This document shows positions 214 to 55,207 of a stretch of DNA of 64,000 nt, one piece after another. The stretch is taken from the NCBI GenBank assembly GCA_000004985.1, contig GG738889.1. One strand, given 5' to 3'. A model generated the notes under the pieces. It was not told where the DNA came from. It saw only the letters and a program-made list of their open reading frames with translations, and ran no database searches. Numbering within the stretch: the first letter of the stretch is position 1; every line of letters starts with the position of its first letter. Source of the stretch: Naegleria gruberi. Lineage: Eukaryota. The position numbers and the translations under genes are program-made.

Positions 214-2905
214 TTATTGTTGGACTGGAGCTTGTTGTTGTTGTTGTGGAGGAGCTTGTTGCTGTTGTTGTTGAGGAGCTTGTTGCTGTTGTGGAATTTG
301 TAAATTCATACCATAGTTCATCATTGCATCCATGTAAGGATCTCCTAATGAAGTCTGACCAGGTTGACTTCCATATTGAGATGGTTGTGTTTGACCTGGG
401 TATCTACCATTAAACACCAAAGGTGAACCAGAAGTTGGAGAACCACCATTAATGGAAACGAAAGGTTGAGGGTTATTGTTATACGTTTGTTGTTGGTAAG
501 GATCATAACCACCTTGTCCATAACTTTGTGGATATTGTTGACCGTATCCTTGTTGAGGATATTGTTGACCATATCCTTGTTGAGGATATCCTTGTTGTGG
601 ATATTGTTGACCATATCCTTGTGAGGGTAACCTGTGNNNNNNNNNNNNNNNNNNNNNNNNNNNNNNNNNNNNNNNNNNNNNNNNNNGGTATGAGTGATGA
701 AATTTGTCCTTGATGTCATTTGCAATGGATTCCTTGTTGGTGAACTATCAATTTTTGGATACGAGTACTATATCAGAAATATTGAATAATTTGAATTTCT
801 TCTTGGATTATGCATTATCAGATGAAAATGTGAGAGTTTCAGTAGGTGTGGATACCTTACTTGATAATTGTATTGAATCTGCTTACAAATATATTAAGGA
901 TCGTCAATATGTCAACAATCAGACTTCAAACTCTTATTATTTACATGCTGCACTCAAGAAAATATCCATGCTTCAAGCAAGAAGCTCTGCAATTGGAAGT
1001 TCTGGAAAGAGTAAGAAGGGTCCTTTCTTTTCTTCTGTTTTACATAGGAATACTGTATATGATTTCCCAAAATCTATTATTGACCCTGTTACAGAATCTA
1101 AAATAGTATTCTATTCTGATTTCTTTTCATTTGCTACTTTAAGTTCAACGATTGTGAAGAAACCTTTCGTTTCAGTACTGACCGTTTCGGATGATGTGTT
1201 TTCACTGAATAGTAGACTGGAAATGACTCATATATCTGAAAGTCAAACCACGTATTCGAAACTTATTTCTAGAATTGTGTCTATTGATTTCTCAGAACTG
1301 CCAGTTCAAGTAAATGGGAGTAAGATTTCCTACATCATTCCTTATAACACTACTGACAAAGAAGAACCAGCTCAATTTGCCAATTTAGAGTTACTTGAAA
1401 AGAACACAACTGTCACTTGTGGAGATTTCAGAAATGGATCACCAACCATCTTGAGAAGTGATTGCACATTACAAACAAGAAATACCACTCATGTGGTTTG
1501 TACATGTGTTAGTTTTACAAATGTCTTTGTTGTAGAAACTACAGTTGTGACCTATCATTCCTATGTCTATGTGGTTGCCATTGTAGTTTCTTCCATTGTA
1601 GCTTGTGTTTTATTCTTGCTGATTGCTATTGGTGTACTCGTCTCGATCATTAAAATTAGGAGAAACAAAGGAACAACTGCCAACAAACCAGAAACAGTAA
1701 CAAATACTTCAACCTTCTCACTCAGAGTTCAGGAAGTTGAAATTGAAACATCATCCTATGGAAGGGGTCAAACNNNNNNNNNNNNNNNNNNNNNNNNNNN
1801 NNNNNNNNNNNNNNNNNNNNNNNCTGTTGACCATATCCTTGTTGTGGATATTGTTGAGAATATTGTTGAGGATATCCTTGTTGTTGAGGGTAACCTTGTT
1901 GTTGCATTTGTTGAGGATATCCTTGTTGTTGTGGATATTGTTGCATTCCTTGTTGAGGGTAACCTTGTTGTGGATATTGTTGAGCATAACCTTGTTGTTG
2001 TGGATTTCCCTGTTGATAGCCAGGATAACTAACACCAACTCCAGCATTTATCAATGGAACAGTTGTTTGACCTCCTTGTTGAGTAGCTTGACCATATTGA
2101 CCTTTAATTTGGGTCATGTATTGAGTAAGGGTCGAAATAGATTGTTGCAAGCTGCTCCAATTAGCTTGTTGAGTAGATGTAACCATACTAGCAACGAGAG
2201 GTGTAATTTTATCCTTAATGAGGGCTGCATCATCTTGATCCAACAATGAAGGATCTGCTGCCAACAATTTGAGATTAGTATCAATGGTATTTACAGCATT
2301 ACTAACAAGGGCACAAGGGGAAATTGTTGACTGAGAAACAGGTTGTTGGCTTACTCCTTGTTGAGTATTTGGTTGCATGCCACCTTGTTGTTGAGGATAA
2401 CCTTGTTGCATTTGTTGAGGATAACCTGTTGTTGCATATTAGGCTGCATTTGTTGCATTCCTTGTTGAGGACTTTGTTGCTTTACTCCTCTGGTAATTCT
2501 AGTTTGTCCAATTGGAGTTGGAGGAGCTTGACCTTGTGGAGCAGGTTGATTTGGATTGGAACTCATTTGAATAGTTGGCTGTTGTTGGGATTGTTGAGAT
2601 TGTTGAGAGAAACAATATTGACCCAATCTATTAATCATGGAAATTTGAGTATTAATATTGTTAACATAGACACCAAGCTTGTTACTACTGGATTGCTGTG
2701 GTTGTTGGGATTGTTGGGATTGTTGAGATTGTTGAGGTTGTTGTGGTTGTTGCGGTTGCTGAGGTGGCTGAGGTTGCTGAGATTGCGACGGTTGAGTAGC
2801 TGCTTGTGCATTTGCTGAGGCAGATGCATCCTGAGCATTCACAACACTCAAGGCAACTAGACATAACACGAGGGATAAGCCCAATATATACTTTGGAGTG
2901 ATCAT
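214..2905 (-). CDS. Secreted Q/G/Y/P-rich low-complexity protein (gene body interrupted by gaps and a foreign fragment; 1-nt frame break near 2410-2430)
   Basis: ATG at 2905 opens a classic signal peptide (MITPKYILGLSLVLCLVALSVVNA|QDASA). QQP/QQS CAA-repeat tracts and GYPQQ repeats follow, then a unique central domain (…VSQSTISPCALVSNAVNTIDTNLKLLAADPSLL…). The C-terminal frame is continuous from 636 down to the stop at 214 (…GYPQQGYGQQYP…RYPGQTQPSQYG…APVQQ*). ORF 2351..2905 and ORF 1722..2411 overlap in different frames, so there is a single-base frame break. Bases 637-1823 are two N-gaps bracketing a plus-strand fragment of another gene. Confidence 0.45.
637..686. other. Assembly gap (50 N)
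   Basis: Run of n in the sequence. Confidence 0.95.
687..1773 (+). repeat. Gap-flanked ~95%-identical copy of 19058..20143 (the 3' coding part of the EGF/TM gene); a paralog/pseudogene fragment or a mis-scaffolded contig
   Basis: The two segments align base for base. Example start: ggtatgagtgatgaaatttgtccttgatgtcatttgcaatgg versus ggtatgagtgatgaatatttgtccttgatgtcatttgcaatgg. Identity continues through the TM helix (VYVVAIVVSSIVACVLFLLIAIGVL) and ends with ...SSYGRGQ at the N-run. The copy has the same orientation as the original. Confidence 0.6.
1774..1823. other. Assembly gap (50 N)
   Basis: Run of n. Confidence 0.95.
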
Positions 2906-3064: not shown

Positions 3065-5329
3065 CTACTTTGTTACTGCCGAATCGGTATTCATATTGAG
3101 AACTTTCCTGTAGTACAAAATTTGATAGAGTCCTCTTGTTCTGTACATTAAAATTATTCCACCAACAGCACCAAAACCACACAAGGTTGTGGTCAAGTAG
3201 AATGTTGTCTGATAGCACAGGGTACCGTAACATATCTTGGACATGTTATCTGTTGGAATATTACTTTCGTAGATTTTACCTGCCAATAAGGTAGCAAGTA
3301 GGAAACTTCCCAAACTCGATGCTAAACTACAAATGGACGAATTGACTGCAAAATATTTTGGACCGAATCTTTCACTCAAGAAACTAGGAACCATAACTGC
3401 AACTCCTCCAAAACTAACTCCCAACAATATTAAAATGAAATAGTAAACCCAAAGAGGTGAAACTAGAACAATCATTTGACAAATCAACATGAGCAATACT
3501 CCACCAGTAAGGAAGGTCGTTCTGGTAATGTATCTACTCAATGTATCACTCATTAATCCAAACATCAATCGTCCTAAAGCATTAGAACATGCAAAAATCA
3601 TAACCATCAAATGTTGTTGACCATCGTATCCACCAAATGAAATGACAATTGAGCCCAAATTATTGACAATAACTAATCCAGAACCCATCGTTGCAAAGTA
3701 CACATAAAACACCAAATAAAAATCGAGAGTGAAAAGCATTTGCAATGGATTGGCATCTGGAATTGGAGTTTTGGCAATTTTCCAAATCTTGTCGTATTTG
3801 CCTGCTATTTCCTGATCTGTTTCGATTGGACCTTTATCTAAATCGTCCTCAATTTCTTCAATTTCATCGACTTGCTCTTGCATTGCTTCTCCTCGTTCTT
3901 CCAAAATTAATTGTTGACTCAAATCAAATCCTTCCAAATCTTCTTCCTTATCTTCTATTTCAGAGTTGTCTTCAATCTTTCCAATTGGATTTTCCAATTT
4001 GATATTATCTGTGGTTTCCTCCTTTTTTACATTTGAATCTTGCTTAGTTGGTACTGTTTCAGTCTTATCCTGCTGGCTTCCAACCATTAGAAAATCATTG
4101 AATTGATCTTGATCCTCTTCCAAATCTTCATCATGGACGAAACTATTCACATCTTCTTCATCCTGAGCCACTTGAACATAGCCACCATTATTTGGCGATT
4201 TAGTTGAATCATTTGGCTGTATTCCAATCTGATTCATGAAGAAAGTTCCAATCACAGTTGCAACTCCACCAAAAACTCCTACAAAAAGCAAGTAATCTCC
4301 CAACTTTCTCTCAAATCCAACACTGTAAATGAAACTAAACACTGCACTACTGAGAGCGACACAACTTCCCATAAAACCAATGATTTTTCCTCTATGTCTA
4401 GGTTCAAAATTTTTAATATTGGTCGTAATGGCTGCTGCATAGGCACCTAATTTACAAAAATTGAAATTATTGTAAAATGTTTACAATAAAATTTCAAACA
4501 AAAACCTACCTGCAGATCCCTGACCCATAACTGCCATAAAACATGCAATGAAAATATAAGCATCAGTTCCAACCATGTCAATTGCCTTAATATACACCAA
4601 ATAAAACATAAAATATCCACAAAATAACAAAACTCCAGAAATGACACACGTAATTCTCGATCCCACAAAATCATTCAACATTGAAACAGGTAATGCAAAA
4701 TAAGTTCCAACATTTGCAGCTGTTCCAATTAAATTAACTTGAGTTTGTGAAAAATTCAAATCATTCTTAATGGTTGGTGAGATGGAAGAGTAGGCATAGT
4801 GAGTTCCACTTAGAAATGTTAGTAATGCACCGAATAGGAATGAAATCCATCGATTTCCAAATAAGATGAAATGTAAATTGGTTAAAAAAGTGGAAAATTT
4901 GGATTTTTGTGGAGGTGAAACATTATTAGAATCATTTGGATTGGAAGATGATGGTATAGAAGTGTTATCTTGTTGGTCATTATGTATTGATGGGTCAAAA
5001 TTGTTTCTTGAACGTATTTCTTGATTTATATGATCAGAAATATTATTCGAATCTTGTTGAAAGCTATCGGAATGGTTATCTAGTACTTCCTCTGATATAT
5101 GTGCATCTGCATCACCTTCCTCTCCTTGTTTATGTCCTCGAATAATTATTTTCACAGAAGGCAATGGTTGTTGAGCATTGTTGTCATCTCTCGACGTGTC
5201 ATTGGAAATTATCGATGAAGAAGAAGAATTAAATTCTTGTTGATTTTCAGTGGAAGAAGACGTTGTTTCCTGTTGAGCAACGGATGGTTGACCCTGTTGT
5301 GTGTTGGTGCTATCGAGATTATCATCCAT
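3065..5329 (-). CDS. Nodulin-like major-facilitator (MFS) membrane protein, 2 exons: complement(join(3065..4446,4510..5329)), 63-nt intron
   Basis: ATG at 5329. The N-terminal region is low-complexity and S/N/D-rich. A nodulin-like MFS N-domain follows (…WISFLFGALLTFLSGTHYAYSSISPTIKNDLNFSQTQVNLIGTAANVGTYF…). Donor G|GTAGGT at 4509, acceptor …aaattag| at 4447, phase 1. The junction gives …GQGSAG-AYAAAITTNIKNFEPRHRGKIIGFMGSCVALSS…. There is a long acidic central loop and 10-12 hydrophobic helices. Confidence 0.6.
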
Positions 5330-5337
5330 ATCTTTGA

Positions 5338-8300
5338 TTATGATATTTTTTTTAAAATGGTGACAGAATTTAATCGGAGTTCTTTAATGGTATCGGAAAC
5401 GGAAGTGTTTATTTGAAAATTGTAACTGATCTGATTACATTCTTNNNNNNNNNNNNNNNNNNNNNNNNNNNNNNNNNNNNNNNNNNNNNNNNNNNNNNNN
5501 NNNNNNNNNNNNNNNNNNNNNNNNNNNNNNNNNNNNNNNNNNNNNNNNNNNNNNNNNNNNNNNNNNNNNNNNNNNNNNNNNNCTGGTACCCAAGGTGCTG
5601 GTGGATTACATCCACCAATTGGTTCAATATCATCAGAGTGAGTAATTACGAGGGAATAATTTTGGTTCTTCAGCAATTTGTAAGCTGTTACTGAAACACC
5701 AACAAGTATGTCTTCATCAATTTCCTCAATTCTGACCTTTTCAACGTTATTTAAGTGATCACCGTCTGAGTTGTCATTTCCTGGATATCTAGTTGATCTT
5801 GTACTATTTTCTGAGAATACATAGGCATTCAAATCCAAATCTTGATAAAGCTCAAACTTGGTACTTGTGGCAGCCATGTCATACCAAGCAATTGTGGCAT
5901 ATAGGAATGTAGATCCAGAAGATGGTGATCTACCTGCAACTCTTCTAAAGCAATAGTTTTGTGTTTGACTTTGTGTGATGGTCTTTCTATCAACTGTGAA
6001 TAATTCAAAGGTTGAACCAACAAATTTAAGAACTGAAGACAAGGAAACGAGACCAAATCCAGTATAAGCATTTGGATAACCCATCTTTTTAAGGTCAGAC
6101 ATTGAGCCTCTTCCATCAAGTGACACCATACCCTTCAATGGTTGTGAGGAATGAACAAGGGTGGCTTTAAGCAATGGTCCAGATGGATTACTATGAACAG
6201 TACGAGTCATAAAATATTCACGAATGAGAGCTGTAACATGTTAATAAAAATTCAAATAATTCAATGATAACATACCCAAACTTGATGCAACTAGAGGTGT
6301 TGCCATGGAAGTTCCTCTGAGTGTCAATACAGATGCTTTGTTAGTTGGGGTTGGTCTTCCTGTTCCACATTGGAAAGTACTGAGACTACCATCAGAGTGC
6401 ATAGATTCAATTTCATAACCAGGAGCAACAAGATCAGGTTTGATTCTGTTACCAATTGCTGGTCCACGTCCAGAGAAGTAAGCTAAATTTTCCTTTGTAA
6501 AGTATTTCTTACTGTCAGAGTAAGTCTTCTTCATAAAAGTGCTGCAGCACAATGATTTAACAAGGTTGGTCTGGTCATCTGTTGTTCCCTTAAAGTTACA
6601 ACATTCCTCTTCTGATGAAACCTTGATGGCTTGGAAAATACTGGTAAAATCAACATGGTCAACTGCACTGATAAAACCGTCATTTGTAGTTTGAGAAGCA
6701 CCAACACTGATAACATTCTTTGAGGTGGTTGGACTACCAATATTACCAACATCAGATGTATGTCCTTCGTTACCAGCTGCAAATAAGACAACAAAATCAT
6801 CATGATCCCATGTGAATTTGTCGATATCTTGAGCTTTGGTATCATAGGTATTACAAATTTGGCAGCAAGATTTTCCAAACATTGTTTTACAGAAATCATT
6901 TGAAACAGTCTCTCCTGTTTTACCATAGTCTGTATCAATTGCCCATTTACAATTACAATTATATTTACAATTAAACACTGCAGAGAAAGAACATCCCCAA
7001 CTATTGGAATGGATTCTCACGTTTGCCTTTTGATATGGAATCTTGAACAAGTAATTGTACAAATCAGGTGGAATGAGAAGACTACTTCCTCCAGTTTTCA
7101 TAATGTCAGTAAAGAAGAGCTTGGCACCTGGTGCACCTCCATTATACTTTTTAAGATCTGAAAAAGTATCTGCACTTGTCAAAATGCTTCCAGCAATACT
7201 GCCAGCAACGTGAGTACCATGTCCATCACCACCATCTTGATCGTCTGACTTGTAAATATTTCCATACTTATCTTCGAGAGCCACAGTTTGATAAGAGACA
7301 ATCTTTCTGTGTTCCATATTGACAGTGTTGACTGGAACTTCATTATCAGGATCATGGAAGAAGCATTGGTCAGAATCAATACCAGTATCAGCTACACCAA
7401 CTACAACTCCCTTTCCTGTAATTCCATTCTCCCAAATGAATAAATTTGAGCTAGAATTGGCAGTGGTTGGAGTATCAGCATTAATTCCTTGCATAATAAT
7501 ATTTGGATAATAGTTCATGAGAGTGTATGGAAGTTGTCTTTCAACGCTTTGGATAGCATCATGTTTCATGATAATCTTCATGGCTTCAGAGGCAATCTTT
7601 GGAGAACAAGTGAACCCGATTCTATCTTGACCTTCCTTCTTGACTGAAAAGAATAGTGGTTCTTCATCCTTGGATAATTTGGCAATTTCGTTTGAGAACT
7701 TTTCTTGCAATTCCTTATTCAACTGAGAGACAATTGTTTCTGTTTCCTTTTCAATTGTTTCATCGAGAATGGCTCTCAAACTTGGAGTAATAGTGGCAAA
7801 AACTGAAATATGTGAAACAATAGATGATGCCACTGCACGAGTATGCCTATTTAGATTGGAATTTGCCGACTCGAATCTAGTTAATTTTTCAAGAGTTTCC
7901 TCCAATGTAGTTTCCTTAATTTCTGTTTGAGTCGTGGCAGCTTTGTTTTCCCACATTTCCTGCATCTTGGTAAAATCAAGATTGGATTTGAATTTAGAAT
8001 CAACTCTTCCAATCCACTCGATAGTGGATCCATACTCTGTTTCAATAGAGGCAAGTTTGGCCAACTCGGACATTTCGGATGGTGTTGCTCTAATAGCAAG
8101 GAGAACACCATTGGAAAGTGTTCCAATAATTGAATGCTCCAAAGCTTTTCCGAGTCTGTTGGCGGTAATTGCTACATTATTTACAGTATTAGTATTTACA
8201 GTCAATGCATTCAAGAGAGCACCATTAAACTTTGATAAATCCAAATTTGAGCTAGTTAATCTTACAAAGTATTGAATTGGTTCTTCTTTAGAATCTCTTG

Positions 8301-20341: not shown

Positions 20342-22602
20342 TTATTGACCTTCTTTGATAATCTTGAAAAGCGAACTAATATTATTATTCTTAATTGCCT
20401 TTCTACATTCTGAAACAACACGATTCTTTGGTTCTCCTATTCTTAATCTAGCAGCTTTTTGAATCATTTGGTTGACTTCTTTCAATGCAGTTAACAATTG
20501 ATCGTGGTTGGTACTTCTCTTCTTGTATTCACCGATCAATCCCTTGTTGACACTGTGGAGTTCATTATACATGGATCTTACAGATTTCATATCTGCAATC
20601 ACTCTGGAATCTTCTGCTTTAATGACGTAGGCCTTAATAAGCTGAGAGCTATCAGCCATTTCAGCAGTCATCTTTAATCTGTTAGAATTATATTCTTCGA
20701 CACTTTGTGTAATCTGTTCGAACTTTTCAAATTCAACTGGGAAGTCACACTTGGAATCTAATTCCTTGATAGACAAGAATGCACAAACATCTTGGAATAA
20801 ATCACCAGCAACTTCCATATCGTCAACGCTGATAGTCATCATTCCGTCCTTGTAGAGTAATCTGAGAGGAGATCCATCCCTCAGACTTGTAAACTTGGCA
20901 TCTATCACATCAGCCTCTCCTTCAAGCTTAAATACAATGTTAAAAGATTCATTCAACCACATAATAATTCTCTTAACTCTTTCACCTAGAACGAAATTGA
21001 GAACAGATTTTGGAGGTCTAGGATGTTCTCCTGGTATGTACATTGCAAATCTAGGAAGTGTATAACTCAAGTTGAAGATGTGGTATTTAGAACCCAAGTT
21101 GAAACCAACCATAACTTGAATTCTCATTTCCACTGCAATGTTCTTTTCCGGTCTCAAACTGACCTTAATTTCATTCGATGGATTCTTAGAGTAGACCATA
21201 CTGGTATCTGTTGGGAAGAGTTGTTCTGCGGTAATGATTGCTGATCTGATAATATTTTCCGCATCGGTTCTAAAAACAATATCAAGACAATTCTCTTGAA
21301 TATTAGGATTCAAGTTACATTTGACCTTAGAGTCTGATCTAATAAGAGAAGAGTCAATATCACCATTCTTGAGCTTTTTAAGATTTTCCTCGTAGTTTTT
21401 AAGCTCATTGGTCAATTCTTCTCTCTTTTGAATGAGTTTTTCAATTAGTTCATCGAGAGAGGAATCTTCCACTTGTTTTGTAAGATTTTCCTGAGCTGGT
21501 ACATAACCCTTAAGGTCACCACTAACAGAACAACAAATCAATTCATCATGACCATCCATTCTATAATCAGCTACTATTAAACCAGCGACAGATTCCTTGA
21601 GAGAATCTTTGTGAATTAATCTACCATCTTCTTGTTTTCTTACTTCAAGTTTTCCACTATTATAACCAACAATAATATCTGGAACTCCATCTTTAAGAAT
21701 GTCGTATCCAACCATACCATTAACGGCACTCTTAGACTTATTTTTCCAAATTCTATTTGATCCTTTGTATAATCCATAAGTATTACTAGATAAAGCATAT
21801 CCAAAACTTCCACCATTCAAATCGCAAAGCTCTGTAACAGCTGAGGTTTCTTTACATTCAGCAATAATTGATTCGTCTTGATAAATATATATTACATAAT
21901 CGTCAGATCCTACAAGTAATTCATTCTCATTATCACCATTAACATCAGCCAAGCATAAAGAGGTGACATCACCACCTGCAGTAGTCCAAAATTGTTCCTC
22001 ACCATCTCCATCATAACCTTGAATTGAGCAATTTCCACCAACAAAAACAAGTGGATTTGCATGTGATCCAAGCTTTCCGAAAATCATTCTATTTACACCA
22101 TCTTGAACATCTCTGTAGTAAATATCCGAGTTTGTATCAACATTATAGGCCATCAAATTGGTTTGAGTACCAATCATCAAGGTTTCTCTTCTGACTCCTT
22201 GTTTAAAGGCGCCAGAGGCAACACAATTAACGTCCTTATTGACATTCAAGAAGGTTACTATTTTGAAAGAATATTACTAATATTTCTTCAATATTGGATA
22301 CCTACATTGATTTCCTTGATTTGTTTCATGAGGATTGTGTACCATCACCTTACCCGAACTAGTACCAGCAGCAAGACAAGGTCTATTTCCATCGACTAGT
22401 TTTCATATACAAAATTCATACAATCCAACATTGAAATACAATTTAATCAATCCAATTCAGGTCCATCATTGACCAATAAATCAATGAATAGTAGCATTAT
22501 CGTTCCGTAACTTCTTTGATGAAAGCACTTACATTTTCCTACTGCTACAGTTCCCTTCGTGATGGGGTGTCCCAAATTTACTTGAAAGGTTGGATTCAAC
22601 AT
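20342..22602 (-). CDS. BBS2: Bardet-Biedl syndrome 2 protein (BBSome subunit), 3 exons: complement(join(20342..22257,22306..22395,22533..22602))
   Basis: Exon 1 [23 protein letters not shown] matches human [23 protein letters not shown], donor T|GTAAGT. Exon 2 [30 protein letters not shown] matches [28 protein letters not shown]. Donor GTAGGT at 22305, acceptor aaatag at 22258, a 48-nt intron. Exon 3 has collinear matches along the whole protein (…[28 protein letters not shown]…[19 protein letters not shown]…LLVGSDDY…[14 protein letters not shown]…[23 protein letters not shown]…ELKNYEEN…LPRFAMY…[20 protein letters not shown]…[31 protein letters not shown]). The ORF track's start at 22249 is a TTG inside exon 3. 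Confidence 0.85.
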
Positions 22603-37908: not shown

Positions 37909-40900
37909 ATGTCCAACTTTGATGTGAATTCAATCATTGAAAAGGCTGATTCCAAGGATAAGGATATTCGTCATATGGCCCTCTATGACTTGAGTAACGA
38001 ATTACAAAAGGAAAATTTAAAGTTGNNNNNNNNNNNNNNNNNNNNNNNNNNNNNNNNNNNNNNNNNNNNNNNNNNAATTATTATCATTATTGATCACTTG
38101 AAATATTTTTAACTCTCTCTTCCATCAATTATGTAATATNTGTTTTATCACATTCTATGTGATTAATACAACAAATCTCTACATTGATCATCAACATTGT
38201 GCGATTCACAATTTAATTGTGATTCCTCGTGATGATAACAACAACAACAATAATACTTTTTGATCTTATATAGTTTGCCTCACCTTGTTAACAAGATGAG
38301 CAAGGTTCAAATTGAAAACAGTATTTCATCACTTAGTAGCAATATTCTCAAGGGTGAAGATGAAAAGAGAGACATTGCTGCTATTGCTTTAAAGACTGTC
38401 ATTTCTGAAATTCCAATGGAAAATGCTCAAGCTCCTATCAAGAAATGTATTACACCACTCCTCCAAGGTCTTTCAAGTGATAATCCAGAAATCAAGTTGG
38501 TTGCTCTTGATGTTTTGTCTGATTTATTGGCTCGTTTCGGCGCTATGGTTGCTGATGAACATGAAAAGTTACAAAGTGCCTTCTCTGCCGAATTAAAATC
38601 AAGCAGAGTTTCCGTTCGTAAAAGAGCTATTGCTTGTCTTGCTGCCTTGTCAGTTCATACTAGTGATAAATTATTTGATGCCTTGTTGACAAGTGTTGTC
38701 AATGGTATTGATAATGTTATCAAGACAATGAAGAAGCAAAAGGATAATAGCAAAGTTGAAGAACTTTCTACTTATATTCAATCTTGTAGTGCTATTTCAA
38801 AGACTGCTGGTCACAGATTTGGTAAATATTTGGCTAGAATTATTCCATTGTTCATGGATGCTGCTGAAATTATTGCAGGATCTTTGGATGAAGATGATGA
38901 AGAAATGGTTGATACTAATACTGAAATTAATGATGAAGTTCGTGAATATATTACTCAAGCTTTCGAAGCCTTTGTTACAAGATGTCCAGATGAAGTTGCC
39001 AGATATGTTGATTACGTCATTATTATTTGTAAGGAATACCTCGAATATGATCCAAACTATTCATATGATGATAGTGAAGATGAAGCTGAAGAAGCTGATG
39101 TAATGCAAGATGATGATGATGAAGATGGTTTGGGAGATGATCTTGATGAAGGTGGTTTATCTGAAGATGATGATGTTACATGGAAAGTTCGTAGATCTGC
39201 TGCTAAATGTTTAGGTTCATTGATTAGATCTAGACCAGAATTATTGGCATCTTTCTATACTGAATTGTGTTCTGAAGAAGATATTTCATTGATTCGTCGT
39301 TTCAAGGAAAGAGAAGAACCAGTTAAACTTGATATTTTCAATGTTTTCATTGATTTGTTGCATCAATCATACTCTACAAAGACTTCTCCAAGTGGTGAAG
39401 TTTCATACAAGCAACATGATGAAGTTAAATTTGTTGAACAAACAAAGGATGCTATCATGAAACGTATTAAGAAGCAATTGAAAGAAAAGTCAGAAAAGAC
39501 TAAAGTTGGTGTTTTCCAAATTTTAAAGTCTTTGGTTGTCACTATGCAAGGTGGTTTGTCTAAATATATTAAGGATTTAGTTCCTTCTGTTTGTTCCGCT
39601 TTAGCTGAAAAGGGAGAACAATCTTCATTGAAATTAGAAACTTTATCATTCTTGAAGACTTTCATTCAATTCCACAAGCCAGAAGAATTTAAACCACATT
39701 TGGAAACTTTAATGAAGGCTGTTTTCAATTGTGTTAATGATAAGTATTACAAGATTATCACTCAAGCTTTAAGAGTTTGCGGTGAATTGGTTTTGGTTGT
39801 CAAGACTTGTTCAAGTGATTCTAATTATGGTTCTCTTGTTACTCAATTACAAAATAACGTTTATGAAAAGTTGAAGATTCAAGATATTGATCAAGGTGTT
39901 AAAGAAAGTGCTATTACTACAACTGGTTTAATTGTTTCTCACTTGGCTGACAAGTTACCAAACTTGAAGGATACTTTAAATATTTTAAAGGAAAGATTAC
40001 AAAACGAAATTACTCGTCTCACCACTGTTAGAACTTTCACTGTTATTGCTCAACATAAGGTTGATATTTCATCTGTTTTGGTTGAAACTGTCAAGTTATT
40101 CTCTGATTTCTTGAGAAAGGATAACCGTGCTCTTAGACAAGCTGCTTTGGCTGGTTTGAGTCAATTCTCTGTTTCATACAGTGCTAAGATTGATTCTGGT
40201 TTGTTCAGTACTGTTATTGAAGAAGCTGCTGAAGTTATGAATGAAAAGAAGTCTGACTTGCATTTGGCTCATTTGGCTTTCAAGTTAGTTAAACAAATTG
40301 TTGATGCTAATCCATCAACTTTATCTTTGATTCAAAAGTTCGTTTTGCCAAAGATTTTGGAATTGTTGGCAAGTCCAACTTTGCAAGGTAACTGTTTAGA
40401 ATCTCTCTTGGTTGTTTTGGCTATGTTGGTTTCATCAGTTGGTTTTGATAACATTTTGAAACAAGTTTTGGCTATTCCAAAGGAATCTAAGCAAGTTTTC
40501 ACTAATATTGGTAAGGCTGTTGCTGCCATCTGTTCTGCTGGTTCTCAATCAAATAAGACTTCAACTATTGAAAAGTTTGCTAAGGATTTAAAGTCAAAGG
40601 ATGATTCTGCTAGAATGTTGGCCTTGTTCACTTTGGGTGAAATTGGTCGTACTATTGATTTATCTTCATCTGGTACTGTTAGTCAAGATATTGAAGCTTG
40701 TTTCGAAGAAGAAGGTTCTGAAGAATTGAAGAATGCTGCTTCATATGCTCTTGGTAATATTTCTGTTGGTAATTTGGCCAAGTTCTTACCACAAATCATT
40801 AAGGGTATTAGAGAAAGTCCAAAGAAGAAGTACTTGTTGATCCACTCTTTGAAGGAAGTTATTACTCAAGCTGATGCTAACAAGCTTAAGGAATTCATTC

Positions 40901-42063: not shown

Positions 42064-43390
42064 ATGTCTCAACTAAAGGATCTTCCAACCGAACTTGTTG
42101 GTACCATTTTGTCCTATTCAACTCTTCAAGATAGTTTTCTATGGAATACAGTCAGTAAACAATGGAATCAATTGCTACGTGAATATGTCTTTTCTCGTGT
42201 CTTTACCTATTGTGAATTGCATGCTAATAATGATTTTTCCTATTCCTCTAAAGAAATCAAGGAAATTACAAACCAGGATGATGCTGGTGATGATGATGAT
42301 GATGAATATGGTGGATATCAATCCTATCAATTGGAAAATATCTTGATGAGAAGAGGACATTCAGCAGTCAGTCTCGATGATGAATCTAAAATTTTGGTAT
42401 TTGGTGGATTTTGTGGAGATAGACATTGTAATGAATTGTTTGTTGTAGATATTGATAAAAAGACAGTTGAAAGAAAGGTTGAGAATAGAACTAGTGATAA
42501 AGATGTTTTAGATGAGAGTATCATGATGGGTAGATCTTTCCATCCAATGGTTTTAATTTCTGAAAACAAGTTTCTTGTAACTGGTGGATATTGTAATTAT
42601 ACTTTGGACAATTGTCCAAATTTGAGAGATACTTGGATTATTGAATTTAGTGAAAATGATTTCAAATTTACCAAACTTAATCAATCGGGAGATGTTCCAC
42701 CTCCAATGGAAAGTCACTCATTGGTTTATTACAATGGTTATTGCATCTCTTATGGTGGAAGTAGCTTTTTTGAAGATGATGATTTGGGAATGAAACATAA
42801 GGATGTCTATGCATTGAATGTTGAGAGTGGATCGTGGACGAAACTGAGAATTAAACAACAGGAAAGAGGACCTCCTGCCCTTACTGGCCATTCATGTCAT
42901 CTCATTGAGGGAACAAACAAGATGATTCTCTATGGTGGTTACGATCAGGAAAATTCCACTCACAATTCATTGTGGATGCTTCACATTGTTCTCCCAGATG
43001 AAACCAAATTCTTCAATGAGTTTAGTTACTGGGAAGAGATTATTCCACAAACCAATTCCTATGTTCCTGAACCAACATTGTATCATCGTTCTCTATTATT
43101 GCAGAATAGATTATTGGTTGTTTATGGAGGTGCATTGGATTGAGAGTTCCATTCACACTGATCAATTCTCTGTCTTTGATTTGGAAACTAGAAAGTGGAC
43201 TAATCTATTGAATGATGAATGTCTTTTGAAGAAAGATCCAGAAGAGGCTCCAATCAGAGTTTATGGACATACATTGACCTATTTACCAAAGAGTGGAAGA
43301 TTTGTGGTTTTGGGTGGATCCAGTTCTGATTCTGATTATTACAAAGGATTCTCTATGAGTGTTGGAATCTTCTCTCCATTTGTAAATTAG
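42064..43390 (+). CDS. F-box / kelch-repeat protein with a single-base frame break near 43130-43145 (assembly indel or pseudogene)
   Basis: ATG at 42064. F-box (LKDLPTELVGTILSYSTLQDSFLWNTVSKQWNQLL). Kelch-type blades (…ILVFGGF…, …FLVTGGY…, …CISYGGS…, …MILYGGYD…, …LLVVYGGALD*). The next blade and the C-terminus continue in the +1 frame (…WIESSIHTDQFSVFDLETRKWT…RFVVLGGSS…FSPFVN*, stop at 43390). No GT..AG intron fits. Confidence 0.6.
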
Positions 43391-43512: not shown

Positions 43513-44875
43513 TTAATCCTCTGATTCTTCATCAGTGTTGGCTTGAGCATTTTCATCTAGCTCATCATAATCAGATTTCATCTCATCAAAGTTAAATAGT
43601 ACCATTGGAAATTCTTCTGATTCCATTCCTTCTCCCACAAACCAGTGGCAAAAAGCTCGTTTGGTATAACTTGGCATGTATGCCTTTTGTATTTCAATAA
43701 AGGTATTCATGATGGCAGTCGTATTATGTGCAACATGAGCAGTATTGGAAAATTTGAAAGGATCATTATTAATGATTGGAGTTTTAGAGAGTGAAGAGCT
43801 GATACTAGTTTGGACATATTTGCTAAATATTGAAGAAGCATCAGGAGATCGGAAATATGAGCTCGTATCAATAATATTTCTCAAAGAGTATCCTGAACCT
43901 CTCCAAGAAACATTTAAGGCAAGTGTTTTACCTGATGCAAGGTCAATATTATTCATTCTATTCGAAGCAGATACTAATTCAGAAGGATTATATTTTCCAA
44001 TTTCTGTGAAATCCGAAAAGTGATTCGAAATAAAGTTGACTCTTTTGAATGGTACCAAATGTTCATAAATTGATTTCATTGATTTTCCACTACGTATTCC
44101 AAATCGTTGACTAGATGTAAGACTGGAAATTGCTTGAGCTATGAGAAAGTTAATATCCTTATATTGTGGATTTTCCAAGCCATGCATTTTGCTTAAATTA
44201 TACAGTGATGTGTTATCAAAGAAAAAGCTTGCATCCACTGCTTCTCTAATTGCAGAAATTGAGAGTAATACATTATAGGAGGCCACTACCTCATTGGCAT
44301 ATTTAGAACATGGCAAGACTGAAAAGGTACTCTTTGAAAATTCAGTAATTTTGCAAATAGTATCAAAAACATACTGTTGAAATTTTCGTTTCATTCGCCA
44401 ATTTTGTACATAATGATTCAGCCCATCCAGATCCTGTTCCTCCAGACAATGAATGTGTCATCATGACTCCCTGTGGCGAATCACATCTCTCCAATAATTT
44501 TCTCAATCTATTCTCGATATCATCACTCTTTTCTTTGTACATCCAATATTTTCCCCTCGAATAAATCGATGCAGCACTTTCCTTTCCTCTTATTAAATTA
44601 TCCTTCTTATGTATTTTTGAATAGGGTGAAGAGGAAACTCCCAATGAATCCAAAACCTCAGGATCCGAATCAACAAACAAACTTCTCGATGAGAAAACAC
44701 CCTCCGAATTTTCATCAAAAACCGATCCAATATTATTATTTTCAATACTATCCACCTCAGAGAGTTGCATCTTTCCATCAGGTCCAACCATGTGCTCTCT
44801 CGCCAACAATTCCCACAATTCCAAACCAATCTGAGAACCAGCGCCACCAACATGAAGGAAAATGAGTTCGTGCAT
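43513..44875 (-). CDS. Divergent tubulin-superfamily protein (delta/epsilon-like) with a single-base frame break at ~44385 in an A-run
   Basis: ATG at 44875. N-terminus MHELIFLHVGGAGSQIGLELWELLAREH is a degenerate GQCGNQIG box. Signature SLSGGTGSGWAESLC. After a 1-nt frame shift (…KLANETK | FQQYVFDTICKITEFSKSTFSVLPC…), the canonical C-terminal helix RAFCHWFVGEGMESEEF and an acidic tail follow. Deleting one a from cgaaaattt restores one 454-aa frame. Confidence 0.7.
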
Positions 44876-45006: not shown

Positions 45007-45079
45007 GCCGACATAGCTCAGTTGGGAGAGCGTAAGACTGAAGATCTTAAGGTCCCTGGTTCGATCCCTGGTGTCGGCA
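45007..45079 (+). tRNA. tRNA-Phe(GAA): tRNA-Phe (anticodon GAA), 73 nt, no intron
   Basis: GCCGACATAGCTCAGTTGGGAGAGCGTAAGACTGAAGATCTTAAGGTCCCTGGTTCGATCCCTGGTGTCGGCA. It has a 7-bp acceptor stem, a D-arm GCTC/GAGC, an anticodon stem TAAGA/TCTTA with loop CTGAAGA, and a T-loop TTCGATC. It is nearly identical to eukaryotic tRNA-Phe. One T:T mismatch sits in the T-stem. An oligo-T tract lies downstream (45083-45086). Confidence 0.85.
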
Positions 45080-53854: not shown

Positions 53855-55207
53855 TTATTGAATTATGGAAATATCAGAGAGGAGGTTTTTTCTTGAGCAA
53901 TTCAACAAACTCTTGAAAAATCTTTGAACACCCACATTAGCTCTATCCAGATAAAGTACCAAACTATTTGGACCAGTTTTGTAGGTAACTGCTTGTGAGC
54001 TGAATTCCTTTTTCACATCAACAAAAAGGTCATTAACTAAACCTGATGAATTGTATGCATTTCCCTTCAATACTAAAATATCTCCGTCCAATAGGAATGC
54101 CAAATAATCTCTATTCAGTTCCATTGAAATAATTTCTACAGGGAATGGATTGACGATTTGCCTCACATTCAATGATTTGTTTGATGAAGGCAAACCGTAC
54201 TTGTCCTCAATTTCGCTCACTGGAATATTGTTCAGTTTAGGATAATAATCATTACTGGTAGCATATAAATGATAGAATCCATAGATGGATTTTAAGAGTA
54301 AACTATCTGATCCAGCAAATCCAATTGTTGATGCAAAAGCTGGATTGATCCTTCCCATTAATTCCTTTTCTTCAATGCATTGTCCATTAAATGTGCTTCC
54401 TCCTATTATTATTATCATTTGAATAAATATAATATGGTATCAGCAGTATTGACAAGATCATTTCAAATAATTACACTTACCTGTATAAAGAATACCATCC
54501 TGAGTTATTGCACAAACGTGGAAATTACCAGCACACATTTTCATTATTGGAGCATGTGTTCTGACAATGAAATCTGGCCAATTATGTTCGTTACCTCCTT
54601 GAAGCCAATTTTGACCAGTCATGTGTATGTCAGTATTGTTGACAACACAAGTTGAGAAGGAAAATGAACAAGCAATATGAGTGATCTGTCCTCCTGAAGC
54701 CAGTTCAACACCAGGATTGAAGACAGGAATTGGAAAATATGAAAATCTTTCATCTCCACATTCTCTCCGCACTACACTGTTATCAGCCAATTGTCTATAT
54801 TGATTAGTTCCCATTCCATACAATACAGTTTGCTTTTCTTCCACATGTTTAACAAGAAAAATTACTTGTTCAGTGTATGACGATATATCCAACACCTTCT
54901 TTTTAATACCATCAAACTCATCATAGGTTTTCACTAAATATCCAGCATCGGTATTGTTTTGTAGTATTGTGCACTTGTCGTGTCTACTACTATTGGAACC
55001 ATCTTTTTCAATGACAAATACTCTGCCGCTCTCCTCTACAATTCTGATCGTGTTTGGATTGCAATCAACGTGTCTGATCCGAGTAATCTGAGGTATATGA
55101 GCAGTGATCAAATTCAAACGACTAGCAGAGTTGCCAAGAAAATGTGGACCATCAATTGGCTTCTCCTCCTTCGGCGTACTGGCAGAGTAGAAGGCAAATT
55201 TGAGCAT
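53855..55207 (-). CDS. RCC1-repeat (regulator of chromosome condensation-like) protein, 2 exons: complement(join(53855..54402,54481..55207))
   Basis: ATG at 55207; the track start 55231 is GTG. Donor G|GTAAGT at 54480, acceptor aataatag at 54403, a 78-nt intron, in phase. The junction …HVCAITQDGILYTG-GSTFNGQCIEE… is an RCC1 blade signature; other blades include …VLYGMGTNQYRQL…. Confidence 0.5.

What the first reader, a model, noticed from the sequence alone, without database searches (positions are those of the whole stretch)
44360..44400. Single-base frame break in a divergent (delta/epsilon-like) tubulin gene at an A homopolymer
The N-terminal 170 aa, which include GGTGSG, and the C-terminal 293 aa, which include the SVLPCSKY…ASYN and RAFCHWFVGEGMESEEF boxes, are both tubulin-like but offset by one base around gaaacgaaaatttcaac. 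Removing one a gives a continuous 454-aa protein. The gene is clearly not alpha/beta/gamma: it has GGAGSQIG instead of GQCGNQIG and an acidic tail. It is probably a centriolar delta/epsilon/zeta-class tubulin, consistent with the BBS2 gene nearby.
Basis: partly seen in the sequence, partly recalled or inferred. Interest (0 to 1): 0.5.

Follow-up and report, generated by a model that had tools for sequence, protein, structure and literature searches.

The report
Short intron in annotated Naegleria tubulin
The apparent one-base frame break is an ordinary 43-base intron in a Naegleria gruberi gene that public databases already annotate as a very divergent alpha-type tubulin, not a sequencing error and not a delta/epsilon tubulin.

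Summary
The window is Naegleria gruberi NEG-M genomic DNA. The two tubulin-like ORFs on the minus strand are real: 170 aa at 44363..44875 and 293 aa at 43513..44394, offset by one base. The offset comes from a 43-nt GT-AG intron at 44332..44374 (GTATGT...TTACTGAA...AAAG), not from a lost base. Removing it gives a 439-aa protein identical, residue for residue, to the annotated EFC40969.1 / XP_002673713.1 / UniProt D2VQL5 "alpha-tubulin [Naegleria gruberi]". The spliced product keeps the canonical tubulin spacing between GGTGSG and strand S5. An independent metagenome contig, 99% identical, has the same sequence across the break, so a sequencing error is excluded. Similar short introns (45 and 63 nt) occur elsewhere in the window and are supported by domain homology. 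The delta/epsilon assignment fails. Class profiles score alpha 266, beta 245, epsilon 124 and delta 114 bits. Neighbour-joining trees put the gene on the alpha side in 93-95% of bootstraps, next to two other divergent N. gruberi "alpha-tubulin" paralogues, and with epsilon in 0%. The finding is already known and ordinary. No transcript evidence could be retrieved.

The parts
44375..44875 (-). Exon 1 of the divergent alpha-like tubulin gene (codons 1-167, MHELIFLHVGGAGSQIG ... ANETKIST), ending in phase 0 at ACA
   Evidence: The spliced product is an exact match to EFC40969.1.
44332..44374 (-). 43-nt GT-AG spliceosomal intron: GTATGTTTTTGATACTATTTGCAAAATTACTGAATTTTCAAAG. It has a GTATGT 5' site, a branch-like TTACTGAA ending 10 nt before the 3' AG, and an in-frame TGA at its fourth codon.
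   Evidence: Removing it reproduces the annotated protein and the canonical tubulin spacing. The sequence is identical in the independent contig L001.
43513..44331 (-). Exon 2 (codons 168-439 plus stop, STFSVLPCSKY ... DEESED*)
   Evidence: In the representative search, tubulin homologues start aligning at residues 19-23 of the 293-aa ORF, which is the 3' splice site at residue 22.
44376..44392 (-). It is the ordinary last 17 nt of exon 1, encoding (N)ETKIST, and is not a lesion.
   Evidence: Identical in L001.
44363..44365 (-). TGA that ends the 170-aa ORF. It lies inside the intron, so an unspliced message would give a truncated product.
44825..44848 (-). T1 loop motif GGAGSQIG (alpha-type GQAGVQIG with Q to G and V to S)
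44426..44443 (-). T4 tubulin signature GGTGSG
44047..44100 (-). T7-loop/H8 equivalent GIRSGKSMKSIYEHLVPF. The conserved N-x-D-x-x-E/K (alpha N249, D251, E254) is replaced by G, S and S.
43711..43725 (-). Alpha-type NTTAI motif (NSTAI in the beta sequences, NNTAI in the epsilon sequence)
43513..43572 (-). Acidic C-terminal tail DYDELDENAQANTDEESED plus stop

Best explanation
The locus is the annotated Naegleria gruberi NEG-M gene for a highly divergent alpha-like tubulin (EFC40969.1 / XP_002673713.1 / UniProt D2VQL5, 439 aa). Its coding sequence is complement(join(43513..44331, 44375..44875)). The two exons are separated by a 43-nt U2-type GT-AG intron at 44332..44374. Because 43 is one more than a multiple of three, the exons look as if they were offset by a single base.

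Inferred mechanism: the spliceosome removes GUAUGU...UUACUGAA...AAAG and joins codon 167 (ACA, Thr) to AGU (Ser) in phase 0. An unspliced message would terminate at the intron's in-frame UGA.

The protein belongs, with at least two other N. gruberi paralogues (D2V7X5 and D2V982), to the set of 'bonus' highly divergent alpha-tubulins already described for this genome. It keeps the nucleotide-binding signature GGTGSG and the base-contacting N206, Y224 and N228 equivalents. It has lost the T7-loop residues N249, D251 and E254, which in alpha-tubulin complete the GTPase site of the neighbouring beta subunit. It is therefore unlikely to act as a standard polymerising alpha subunit. That functional point is inference only.
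For: Organism: five ORFs of the window are exact matches to N. gruberi proteins on one 348,446-bp scaffold.

Intron:
- GTATGT at 44374 and an AG 43 nt downstream. This is the only nearby GT..AG removal that restores the frame without deleting strand S5.
- The spliced 439-aa product is found, residue for residue, as EFC40969.1 / XP_002673713.1 / D2VQL5 'alpha-tubulin [Naegleria gruberi]'.
- Pfam Tubulin scores 148.7 bits for the spliced model against 133.7 bits for the delete-one-A model.
- The alignment to PDB alpha-tubulin crosses the junction with a single one-residue gap. The multiple alignment shows the GGTGSG-to-S5 distance within one residue of alpha and beta tubulin.
- In a search of 1.84 billion representative proteins, the 150 best-scoring tubulin hits that are listed (of 2037 in all) mostly begin aligning at residues 19-23 of the 293-aa ORF, which is the 3' splice site. 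They do not cover the 21 residues read from intron and out-of-frame exon.
- An independent contig, 99.0% identical, has the identical break region and intron.
- Control introns of 45 nt (6231..6275, GTATGT..ACAG) and 63 nt (4447..4509) in the same window extend the Peptidase_S8 match (137 to 155 bits) and the Nodulin-like match (46 to 75 bits) when removed.
- N. gruberi genes average 1.7 exons (PMC8296547).

Class:
- The top 57 PDB hits are alpha-tubulins, whereas bona fide epsilon and delta queries hit beta first.
- Class HMM scores are alpha 265.9, beta 245.2, epsilon 124.3 and delta 114.0 bits.
- In NJ bootstraps the gene falls on the alpha side in 93/100 and 95/100 replicates, with paralogue D2V7X5 in 99 and 97, and with epsilon in 0.
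- Alpha-type motifs are present: GKESAAS..SRG, SSLTSSQRF, NTTAI and KRAFCHWFVGEGME.

Literature: N. gruberi has 13 alpha and 9 beta genes, some highly divergent (PMC9036621). It has seven 'bonus' divergent alpha-tubulins plus single conserved gamma, delta and epsilon genes (PMC9081340).
Against: - No transcript or cDNA evidence for the splice could be retrieved. The exact 439-aa product is not on record in the index of called genes. Neither the spliced nor the unspliced junction occurs in the JGI metagenome collection.
- At 43 nt the intron is much shorter than the genome's reported mean of 203 bp.
- The public gene model is itself a prediction, so agreeing with it is not independent proof of splicing.
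- The trees are distance-based (NJ) on very long branches, contain no gamma or zeta/eta references, and place the gene outside the canonical alpha clade.
- Pfam Tubulin_C is not detected at E <= 0.01, and the T7 loop is degenerate. A decaying gene is therefore not formally excluded.
Confidence: 0.93

Rival explanations
1. Single-base insertion or sequencing error at the AAAA run. The true gene would be one continuous 453-aa ORF.
For: Deleting one A does give an open 453-aa frame. The window is a draft assembly with N gaps. The neighbouring Kelch gene differs by a 2-bp indel from another strain.
Against: - An independently assembled contig from a different strain has the identical sequence at the break.
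- The 14 extra residues have no counterpart in any tubulin hit, and the model scores 15 bits lower against Pfam.
- The A run is only four bases long.
- A canonical GTATGT..AG intron explains the offset exactly and matches the public annotation.
Confidence: 0.01
2. A genuine frameshift in a decaying tubulin pseudogene, with the GT..AG pair a coincidence exploited by the gene predictor.
For: - The protein is extremely divergent: at most 33-35% identity to anything else among 1.84 billion representatives.
- It lacks the T7 residues and a detectable Tubulin_C match.
- No transcript evidence was found.
- Three of the four codon differences between the two strains are non-synonymous.
Against: - After splicing, the ORF is intact over 439 codons in two strains, with no further stops or indels.
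- Splicing restores the canonical spacing to within one residue, which a random frameshift would not do.
- The extended 5' site GTATGT matches another homology-supported intron in the window.
- Indels between the strains fall in the flanks, not in the coding sequence.
- Many alpha-type motifs are still conserved.
Confidence: 0.04
3. Programmed +1 ribosomal frameshift at the slippery stop UUU UGA U that ends the 170-aa ORF (formally like prfB CUU UGA C). It would read into the 293-aa frame without splicing.
For: At the end of the first ORF the sequence is TGT TTT TGA T. A tRNA-Phe could re-pair one base downstream, and the next codon, GAT, is in the second ORF's frame (the comparison with prfB is from my own knowledge).
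Against: The product would carry a 13-14-residue insertion with no homology in tubulins. No stimulatory element was examined or is known here. The slippery site lies inside a perfectly good intron. The public annotation uses splicing.
Confidence: 0.01
4. The protein is a centriolar delta/epsilon/zeta-class tubulin.
For: It is not a canonical alpha, beta or gamma tubulin. Naegleria builds basal bodies, and BBS2 is in the window. Zeta/eta and gamma references were not available for the trees.
Against: - Class HMM scores are epsilon 124 and delta 114 bits, against alpha 266 and beta 245.
- Identity is 23.5% to epsilon and 20.9% to delta, against 31.8% to alpha.
- Epsilon is monophyletic without the query in 100/100 bootstraps.
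- True epsilon tubulins are about 50% identical from ciliates to vertebrates to the heterolobosean Willaertia.
- N. gruberi already has single conserved delta and epsilon genes (PMC9081340).
- The epsilon and delta sequences recovered here carry GQCGNQ[VTL]G, not G-x-A-G.
Confidence: 0.03

Closest known systems
EFC40969.1 / XP_002673713.1 / UniProt D2VQL5, 'alpha-tubulin [Naegleria gruberi]' (NEG-M genome annotation, Fritz-Laylin et al. 2010)
   Same: Identical. The 439-aa product of complement(join(43513..44331, 44375..44875)) matches it residue for residue.
   Different: Nothing. The window is this locus.
Other highly divergent N. gruberi 'alpha-tubulin' paralogues: D2V7X5 (XP_002679827.1, 437 aa) and D2V982 (XP_002679287.1, 446 aa)
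   Same: They are the nearest relatives in the trees (97-99% and 81-88% bootstrap). They share G-x-x-G-x-x-IG variants (GGAGCQIG in D2V982), a degenerate T7 loop, and the NTTAI/NTTSI and KRAFVHW motifs.
   Different: Identity is only about 33%. The D2V982 counterpart in the metagenome is a single uninterrupted ORF without an intron. D2V7X5 has a 13-aa insertion at the intron position.
Canonical alpha-tubulin (for example PDB 6s8m_A, 9eok_A, 1jff_A)
   Same: Full-length alignment at 213 bits. Alpha-type T3, H7, NTTAI and KRAFxHWxVGEGME motifs, an S9-S10 loop longer than in beta, and an acidic tail.
   Different: Identity is about 32%. Q11 is G. T7 residues N249, D251 and E254 are lost, E183 is A, and the T3 NN is SI. 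Pfam Tubulin_C is not detected. The gene lies outside the canonical alpha clade.
Naegleria mitotic alpha-tubulins (alpha6; JGI 58607 and 55745)
   Same: Also divergent, Naegleria-lineage alpha paralogues (PMC9036621).
   Different: [quoted passage not shown] This gene is about 32% identical to alpha-tubulins and has no relative above about 35% anywhere.
Epsilon- and delta-tubulins
   Same: Tubulin fold and GGTGSG.
   Different: See the membership tests. Profile scores are far lower and phylogenetic support is 0%.

Membership tests
U2-type GT-AG spliceosomal intron | GT at the 5' end and AG at the 3' end, with an extended 5' site like other introns of the same genome | tested here: met
   The intron reads GTATGT...AAAG. 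A 45-nt GTATGT..ACAG intron and a 63-nt GTAGGT..TTAG intron in the same window are supported by domain extension.
U2-type GT-AG spliceosomal intron | Removal restores one reading frame and uninterrupted homology to the protein family | tested here: met
   The result is a 439-aa ORF. Pfam scores 148.7 against 133.7 bits. There is a one-residue gap against alpha-tubulin at the junction, and homologues start aligning at the 3' splice site.
U2-type GT-AG spliceosomal intron | Branch-point-like motif upstream of the 3' AG | tested here: inconclusive
   TTACTGAA ends 10 nt before the AG. It resembles the yeast TACTAAC consensus (my own knowledge), but no Naegleria consensus was available.
U2-type GT-AG spliceosomal intron | Spliced mRNA observed | not testable with these tools
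   No record of the exact product among called genes. Neither the spliced nor the unspliced junction is in the JGI metagenome collection.
Tubulin/FtsZ superfamily, eukaryotic tubulin | Tubulin GTPase domain with the GGTGSG signature | tested here: met
   PF00091 at E = 3.2e-43 over profile positions 1-189 of 190. GGTGSG at residues 145-150.
Alpha-tubulin | Groups with alpha rather than beta, epsilon or delta in profile scores and phylogeny | tested here: met
   HMM scores are alpha 265.9, beta 245.2, epsilon 124.3 and delta 114.0 bits. NJ places it on the alpha side in 93/100 and 95/100 bootstraps. It sits outside the canonical alpha clade, and there were no gamma or zeta references.
Alpha-tubulin | Alpha-type sequence signatures (GQAGVQIG, GKEDAANNYARG, SSITASLRF, NTTAI, KRAFVHWYVGEGMEE, long S9-S10 loop) | tested here: met
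   The gene has GGAGSQIG, GKESAASIYSRG, SSLTSSQRF, NTTAI and KRAFCHWFVGEGMES. Its S9-S10 loop is 5 residues longer than in beta.
Alpha-tubulin | T7 loop N249-x-D251-x-x-E254, which activates GTP hydrolysis on the adjacent beta subunit | tested here: not met
   The aligned segment is GIRSGKSMKSIYEHLVPF, with N to G, D to S and E to S.
Alpha-tubulin | Tubulin C-terminal domain recognisable (PF03953) | tested here: not met
   No PF03953 hit at E <= 0.01, although full-length alignment to PDB alpha-tubulins extends to about residue 435.
Alpha-tubulin | Forms a heterodimer with beta-tubulin and assembles into microtubules | not testable with these tools
   Requires biochemistry. Fulton (PMC9081340) considers the 'bonus' divergent set unlikely to assemble by themselves.
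Epsilon-tubulin | Clusters with the conserved epsilon family (about 50% identity across eukaryotes) | tested here: not met
   Mean identity is 23.5%. Epsilon is monophyletic without the query in 100/100 bootstraps and the query falls with epsilon in 0/100. The epsilon HMM scores 124 bits for the query against 769 bits for Willaertia epsilon.
Delta-tubulin | Clusters with or scores best against delta-tubulins | tested here: not met
   The delta HMM scores 114 bits and mean identity is 20.9%. Only five delta references were used, four of them molluscan.
Zeta/eta-tubulin and gamma-tubulin | Phylogenetic grouping with the class | not tested
The 57 best PDB hits are alpha and the remaining three listed are beta, with no gamma-tubulin among the 60 shown.
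Misato | Misato segment II / Tubulin_3 domains | tested here: not met
   Only PF00091 and a sub-threshold PF13809 hit were found. No misato families appear at E <= 0.01.
Frameshifted pseudogene or sequencing error | The frame break is absent from independent sequence of the same locus, or is accompanied by other disabling lesions | tested here: not met
   The break is identical in the 99%-identical contig L001. There are no other stops or indels in the coding sequence of either strain.

The most novel reading that the evidence does not exclude
The gene, with D2V7X5 and D2V982, represents a Naegleria gruberi-restricted clade of alpha-derived tubulins. These keep the nucleotide-binding core but have lost the T7 catalytic loop, and this gene has no relative above about 35% identity among 1.84 billion representative proteins. 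If expressed, such proteins could act as non-hydrolysing caps, as assembly regulators, or in a structure other than microtubules. None of this has been characterised.
Probability: 0.25. Interest if true: 0.35.

Novelty: already known. Interest (0 to 1): 0.08.

Why it matters
It matters mainly as a caution. In intron-poor protist genomes, a very short intron whose length is not a multiple of three looks exactly like a one-base frameshift when the sequence is read by eye. Here the public annotation already resolves it.

The biology that remains open is not the frame break. It is the function of Naegleria's highly divergent 'bonus' tubulins, which the literature notes but has not studied.

Tried and rejected
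The 293-aa window ORF was used instead.
- Looking up contigs that encode the exact 439-aa product, as a route to transcript evidence, found nothing on record. The same was true for paralogue D2V7X5.
- Exact-match scans of the JGI metagenome collection for the spliced and the unspliced junction both found nothing, so they are uninformative.
- Full-text and supplement searches for XP_002673713, EFC40969, D2VQL5 and sequence fragments of the protein found nothing. The gene could not be mapped to a JGI ID in the tree files of Velle et al., so published expression data could not be linked to it.
- The Cell 2010 genome paper is not held in the library.
- PDB holds no delta or epsilon tubulin structures that would serve as references.
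- An alternative 85-nt GT..AG removal also restores the frame, but it deletes the conserved S5 strand STFSVLPCSKYANE. It was rejected.
- A +1 ribosomal frameshift at UUU UGA U was considered and rejected (see rival explanations).
- dN/dS between the two strains cannot be estimated, because there are only four codon differences.

Full report
**What the window is.** Five long ORFs of the window are exact, full-length matches to Naegleria gruberi proteins (EFC40961, EFC40888, EFC40890, EFC40893 and EFC40970), all on one 348,446-bp scaffold. The composition, 28-38% G+C, and the dense, mostly uninterrupted ORFs fit that genome. A published table gives N. gruberi NEG-M 33% GC, 1.7 exons per gene and a mean intron length of 203 bp (PMC8296547).

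**The observation.**
- The minus strand carries a 170-aa ORF (44363..44875), beginning MHELIFLHVGGAGSQIG and containing GGTGSG.
- It also carries a 293-aa ORF (43513..44394), containing SVLPCSKYANEVVASYN and RAFCHWFVGEGMESEEF and ending in an acidic tail. The two ORFs overlap in different frames.
- Deleting one A gives a 453-aa continuous product, which is 454 codons with the stop.

So the description of the sequence is accurate.

**What causes the offset.** This is a canonical GTATGT 5' splice site, a TTACTGAA element 10 nt from the end, and a 3' AG, 43 nt in all (44332..44374). Because 43 = 3 x 14 + 1, removing it shifts the frame by exactly one base. Codon 167 (ACA) is then joined to AGT in phase 0, giving a 439-aa protein. 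Five lines of evidence favour this over a lost base:

1. The 439-aa product is found residue for residue in the public protein collection as EFC40969.1 / XP_002673713.1 / UniProt D2VQL5, 'alpha-tubulin [Naegleria gruberi]'. The genome annotators used exactly this intron.
2. The spliced product fits the family better.
   - Pfam Tubulin scores 148.7 bits for it, against 133.7 bits for the delete-one-A model.
   - The alignment to solved alpha-tubulins crosses the junction with only a one-residue gap: lane.tkiststfsvlp against LNMEyGKKSNLQFSVYP.
- In a multiple alignment the distance from GGTGSG to strand S5 is within one residue of alpha and beta tubulins.
3. The 293-aa ORF was searched against 1.84 billion representative proteins and found 2037 tubulin hits. 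Among the best 150, which are the ones listed, alignments mostly start at residues 19-23 of the ORF. That is the predicted 3' splice site at residue 22, so the first 21 residues have no homologue.
4. An independently assembled metagenome contig (ENA ERZ929261, k127_81020, 3018 bp) comes from a different strain. It is 99.0% identical, with 20 mismatches and 5 indels elsewhere. It has the same two ORFs and an identical sequence through the motif and intron. A sequencing error in NEG-M is thereby excluded.
5. Short introns of this kind are normal in this window.
   - A 45-nt GTATGT...ACAG intron at 6231..6275 splits the subtilase catalytic-serine motif GTSMATPLVASSL|ALIREYF. Removing it raises the Peptidase_S8 match from 137.1 to 154.9 bits.
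   - Removing a 63-nt intron at 4447..4509 raises the Nodulin-like match from 46.4 to 75.1 bits.

The only other frame-restoring GT..AG removal nearby is 85 nt long and would delete the conserved S5 strand.

**Is the gene intact?** Between the two strains the coding sequence differs at four codons: M36I, S43T and D71S, all in the variable H1-S2 loop, plus one synonymous change. There are no indels or stops. The indels between the strains lie in the flanks. That is too little variation for a dN/dS estimate, but it gives no sign of decay.

- GQCGNQ[IVLT]G is the motif of the beta, epsilon and delta sequences recovered here. Alpha-tubulins have GQAGVQ[IM]G, from which the query differs at two positions.
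- The 57 best PDB hits are all alpha-tubulins, at 213 bits, and beta starts at 198 bits. A bona fide epsilon (P0052) and a delta (P0058) both hit beta-tubulins first.
- Profiles built here from named or signature-bearing sequences score the query at alpha 265.9, beta 245.2, epsilon 124.3 and delta 114.0 bits. A real heterolobosean epsilon (Willaertia) scores 768.6 bits on the epsilon profile.
- Mean identities are 31.8% to alpha, 27.7% to beta, 23.5% to epsilon and 20.9% to delta.
- Two neighbour-joining analyses were run, with 63 and 55 sequences, about 430 columns and 100 bootstraps each. They put the query on the alpha side of the alpha/beta split in 93 and 95 replicates. It fell with beta in 0 and with epsilon in 0, and epsilon was monophyletic without it in 100.
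- Its nearest neighbours are two other N. gruberi proteins annotated as alpha-tubulin, D2V7X5 (bootstrap 99 and 97) and D2V982 (all three together 81 and 88).
- Alpha-type motifs are visible throughout: GKESAAS-YSRG, SSLTSSQRF, NTTAI, KRAFCHWFVGEGME, an S9-S10 loop longer than in beta, and an acidic tail.
- No misato families were hit.
- Caveats: the trees are distance-based on long branches, and no gamma or zeta/eta references were available.

**What the literature says.**
[quoted passage not shown] The same survey found single conserved gamma, delta and epsilon genes (PMC9081340).

This gene fits the 'bonus' alpha set, and the delta and epsilon slots are already filled by other genes. I could not map it to a JGI identifier in the published trees or expression tables.

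**Likely function (inference).**
- Retained: GGTGSG, and the equivalents of N206, Y224 and N228, which contact the guanine base.
- Changed: Q11 to G, the T3 NN to SI, and E183 to A.
- Lost: the whole T7 motif. Alpha N249, D251 and E254 are replaced by G, S and S. The two paralogues have lost it as well.

In alpha-tubulin, E254 completes the GTPase site of the beta subunit below it (established knowledge). A protein without it is therefore unlikely to be a standard polymerising alpha subunit. No relative above about 35% identity exists among 1.84 billion cluster representatives, so this is a lineage-restricted, fast-evolving paralogue. Whether it is expressed is unknown.

**Context.** BBS2 is indeed in the window, at 20342..22249 on the minus strand, but it is 22 kb away. 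The genes between them and around the tubulin gene are unrelated: Maf, a BTB protein, amine oxidase, ABC1 kinase, CAND1/TIP120, an F-box/Kelch protein, an UNC-93/MFS transporter and an HMGL-like enzyme. Proximity carries no functional meaning here.

**Verdict.** The sequence observation is accurate, but both interpretations fail. The 'frame break' is a 43-nt intron that the public annotation already models. The gene is a known, highly divergent alpha-like tubulin paralogue of N. gruberi, not a delta/epsilon tubulin. The missing piece is direct transcript evidence, which these tools could not supply.

Noticed in passing
window 43130..43150 (+), within the F-box/Kelch gene at 42064..43390: NEG-M reads GATTGAGAG where the 99%-identical metagenome contig L001 reads GATTGGGAGAG. 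The 2-bp difference creates the TGA that ends the annotated 359-aa protein EFC40892.1. L001 encodes a continuous 442-aa Kelch protein, and the Kelch homology continues in another frame of the window (ORF 42932..43390). This is a better candidate for a real frameshift or assembly error than the tubulin gene.
   Followed up: partly
N. gruberi paralogue D2V7X5 (P0082), residues about 160-175; not in the window: Its model carries a 13-aa insertion (HEFQLPMVSKYGHDIVDTM) exactly where the window gene has its 43-nt intron. RefSeq flags the model as a 'LOW QUALITY PROTEIN'. It could be an unspliced in-frame intron at a shared position. The DNA could not be retrieved.
   Followed up: partly
window 44360..44374 (-): The 170-aa ORF ends TGT TTT TGA T. 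This is formally a +1 slippery stop that leads into the second ORF's frame. It lies inside the intron and is most likely a coincidence.
   Followed up: partly
window 6231..6275, 4447..4509 and 54403..54480 (all -): Other short GT-AG introns of 45, 63 and 78 nt, in a subtilase gene, a Nodulin-like/MFS gene and an RCC1-like gene. The first two are supported by extension of the Pfam domain match.
   Followed up: yes
window 45007..45079 (+): A tRNA-Phe(GAA) gene lies about 130 nt upstream of the tubulin start codon, in the divergent intergenic region.
   Followed up: no
window 637..686, 1774..1823, 5445..5582, 38026..38075, 38140: Runs of N (assembly gaps). One interrupts the C-terminal part of the subtilase gene.
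   Followed up: no
window 20342..22249 (-): The BBS2 ORF starts at position 50 of the BBS2_N profile, so its first exon probably lies upstream of another short intron.
   Followed up: no
L002 (ENA ERZ929261, contig k127_241011), 987..2327: The same metagenome sample also contains the counterpart of paralogue D2V982 as a single uninterrupted 446-aa ORF. A close relative of N. gruberi is therefore present in that sample, and that paralogue has no intron.
   Followed up: partly
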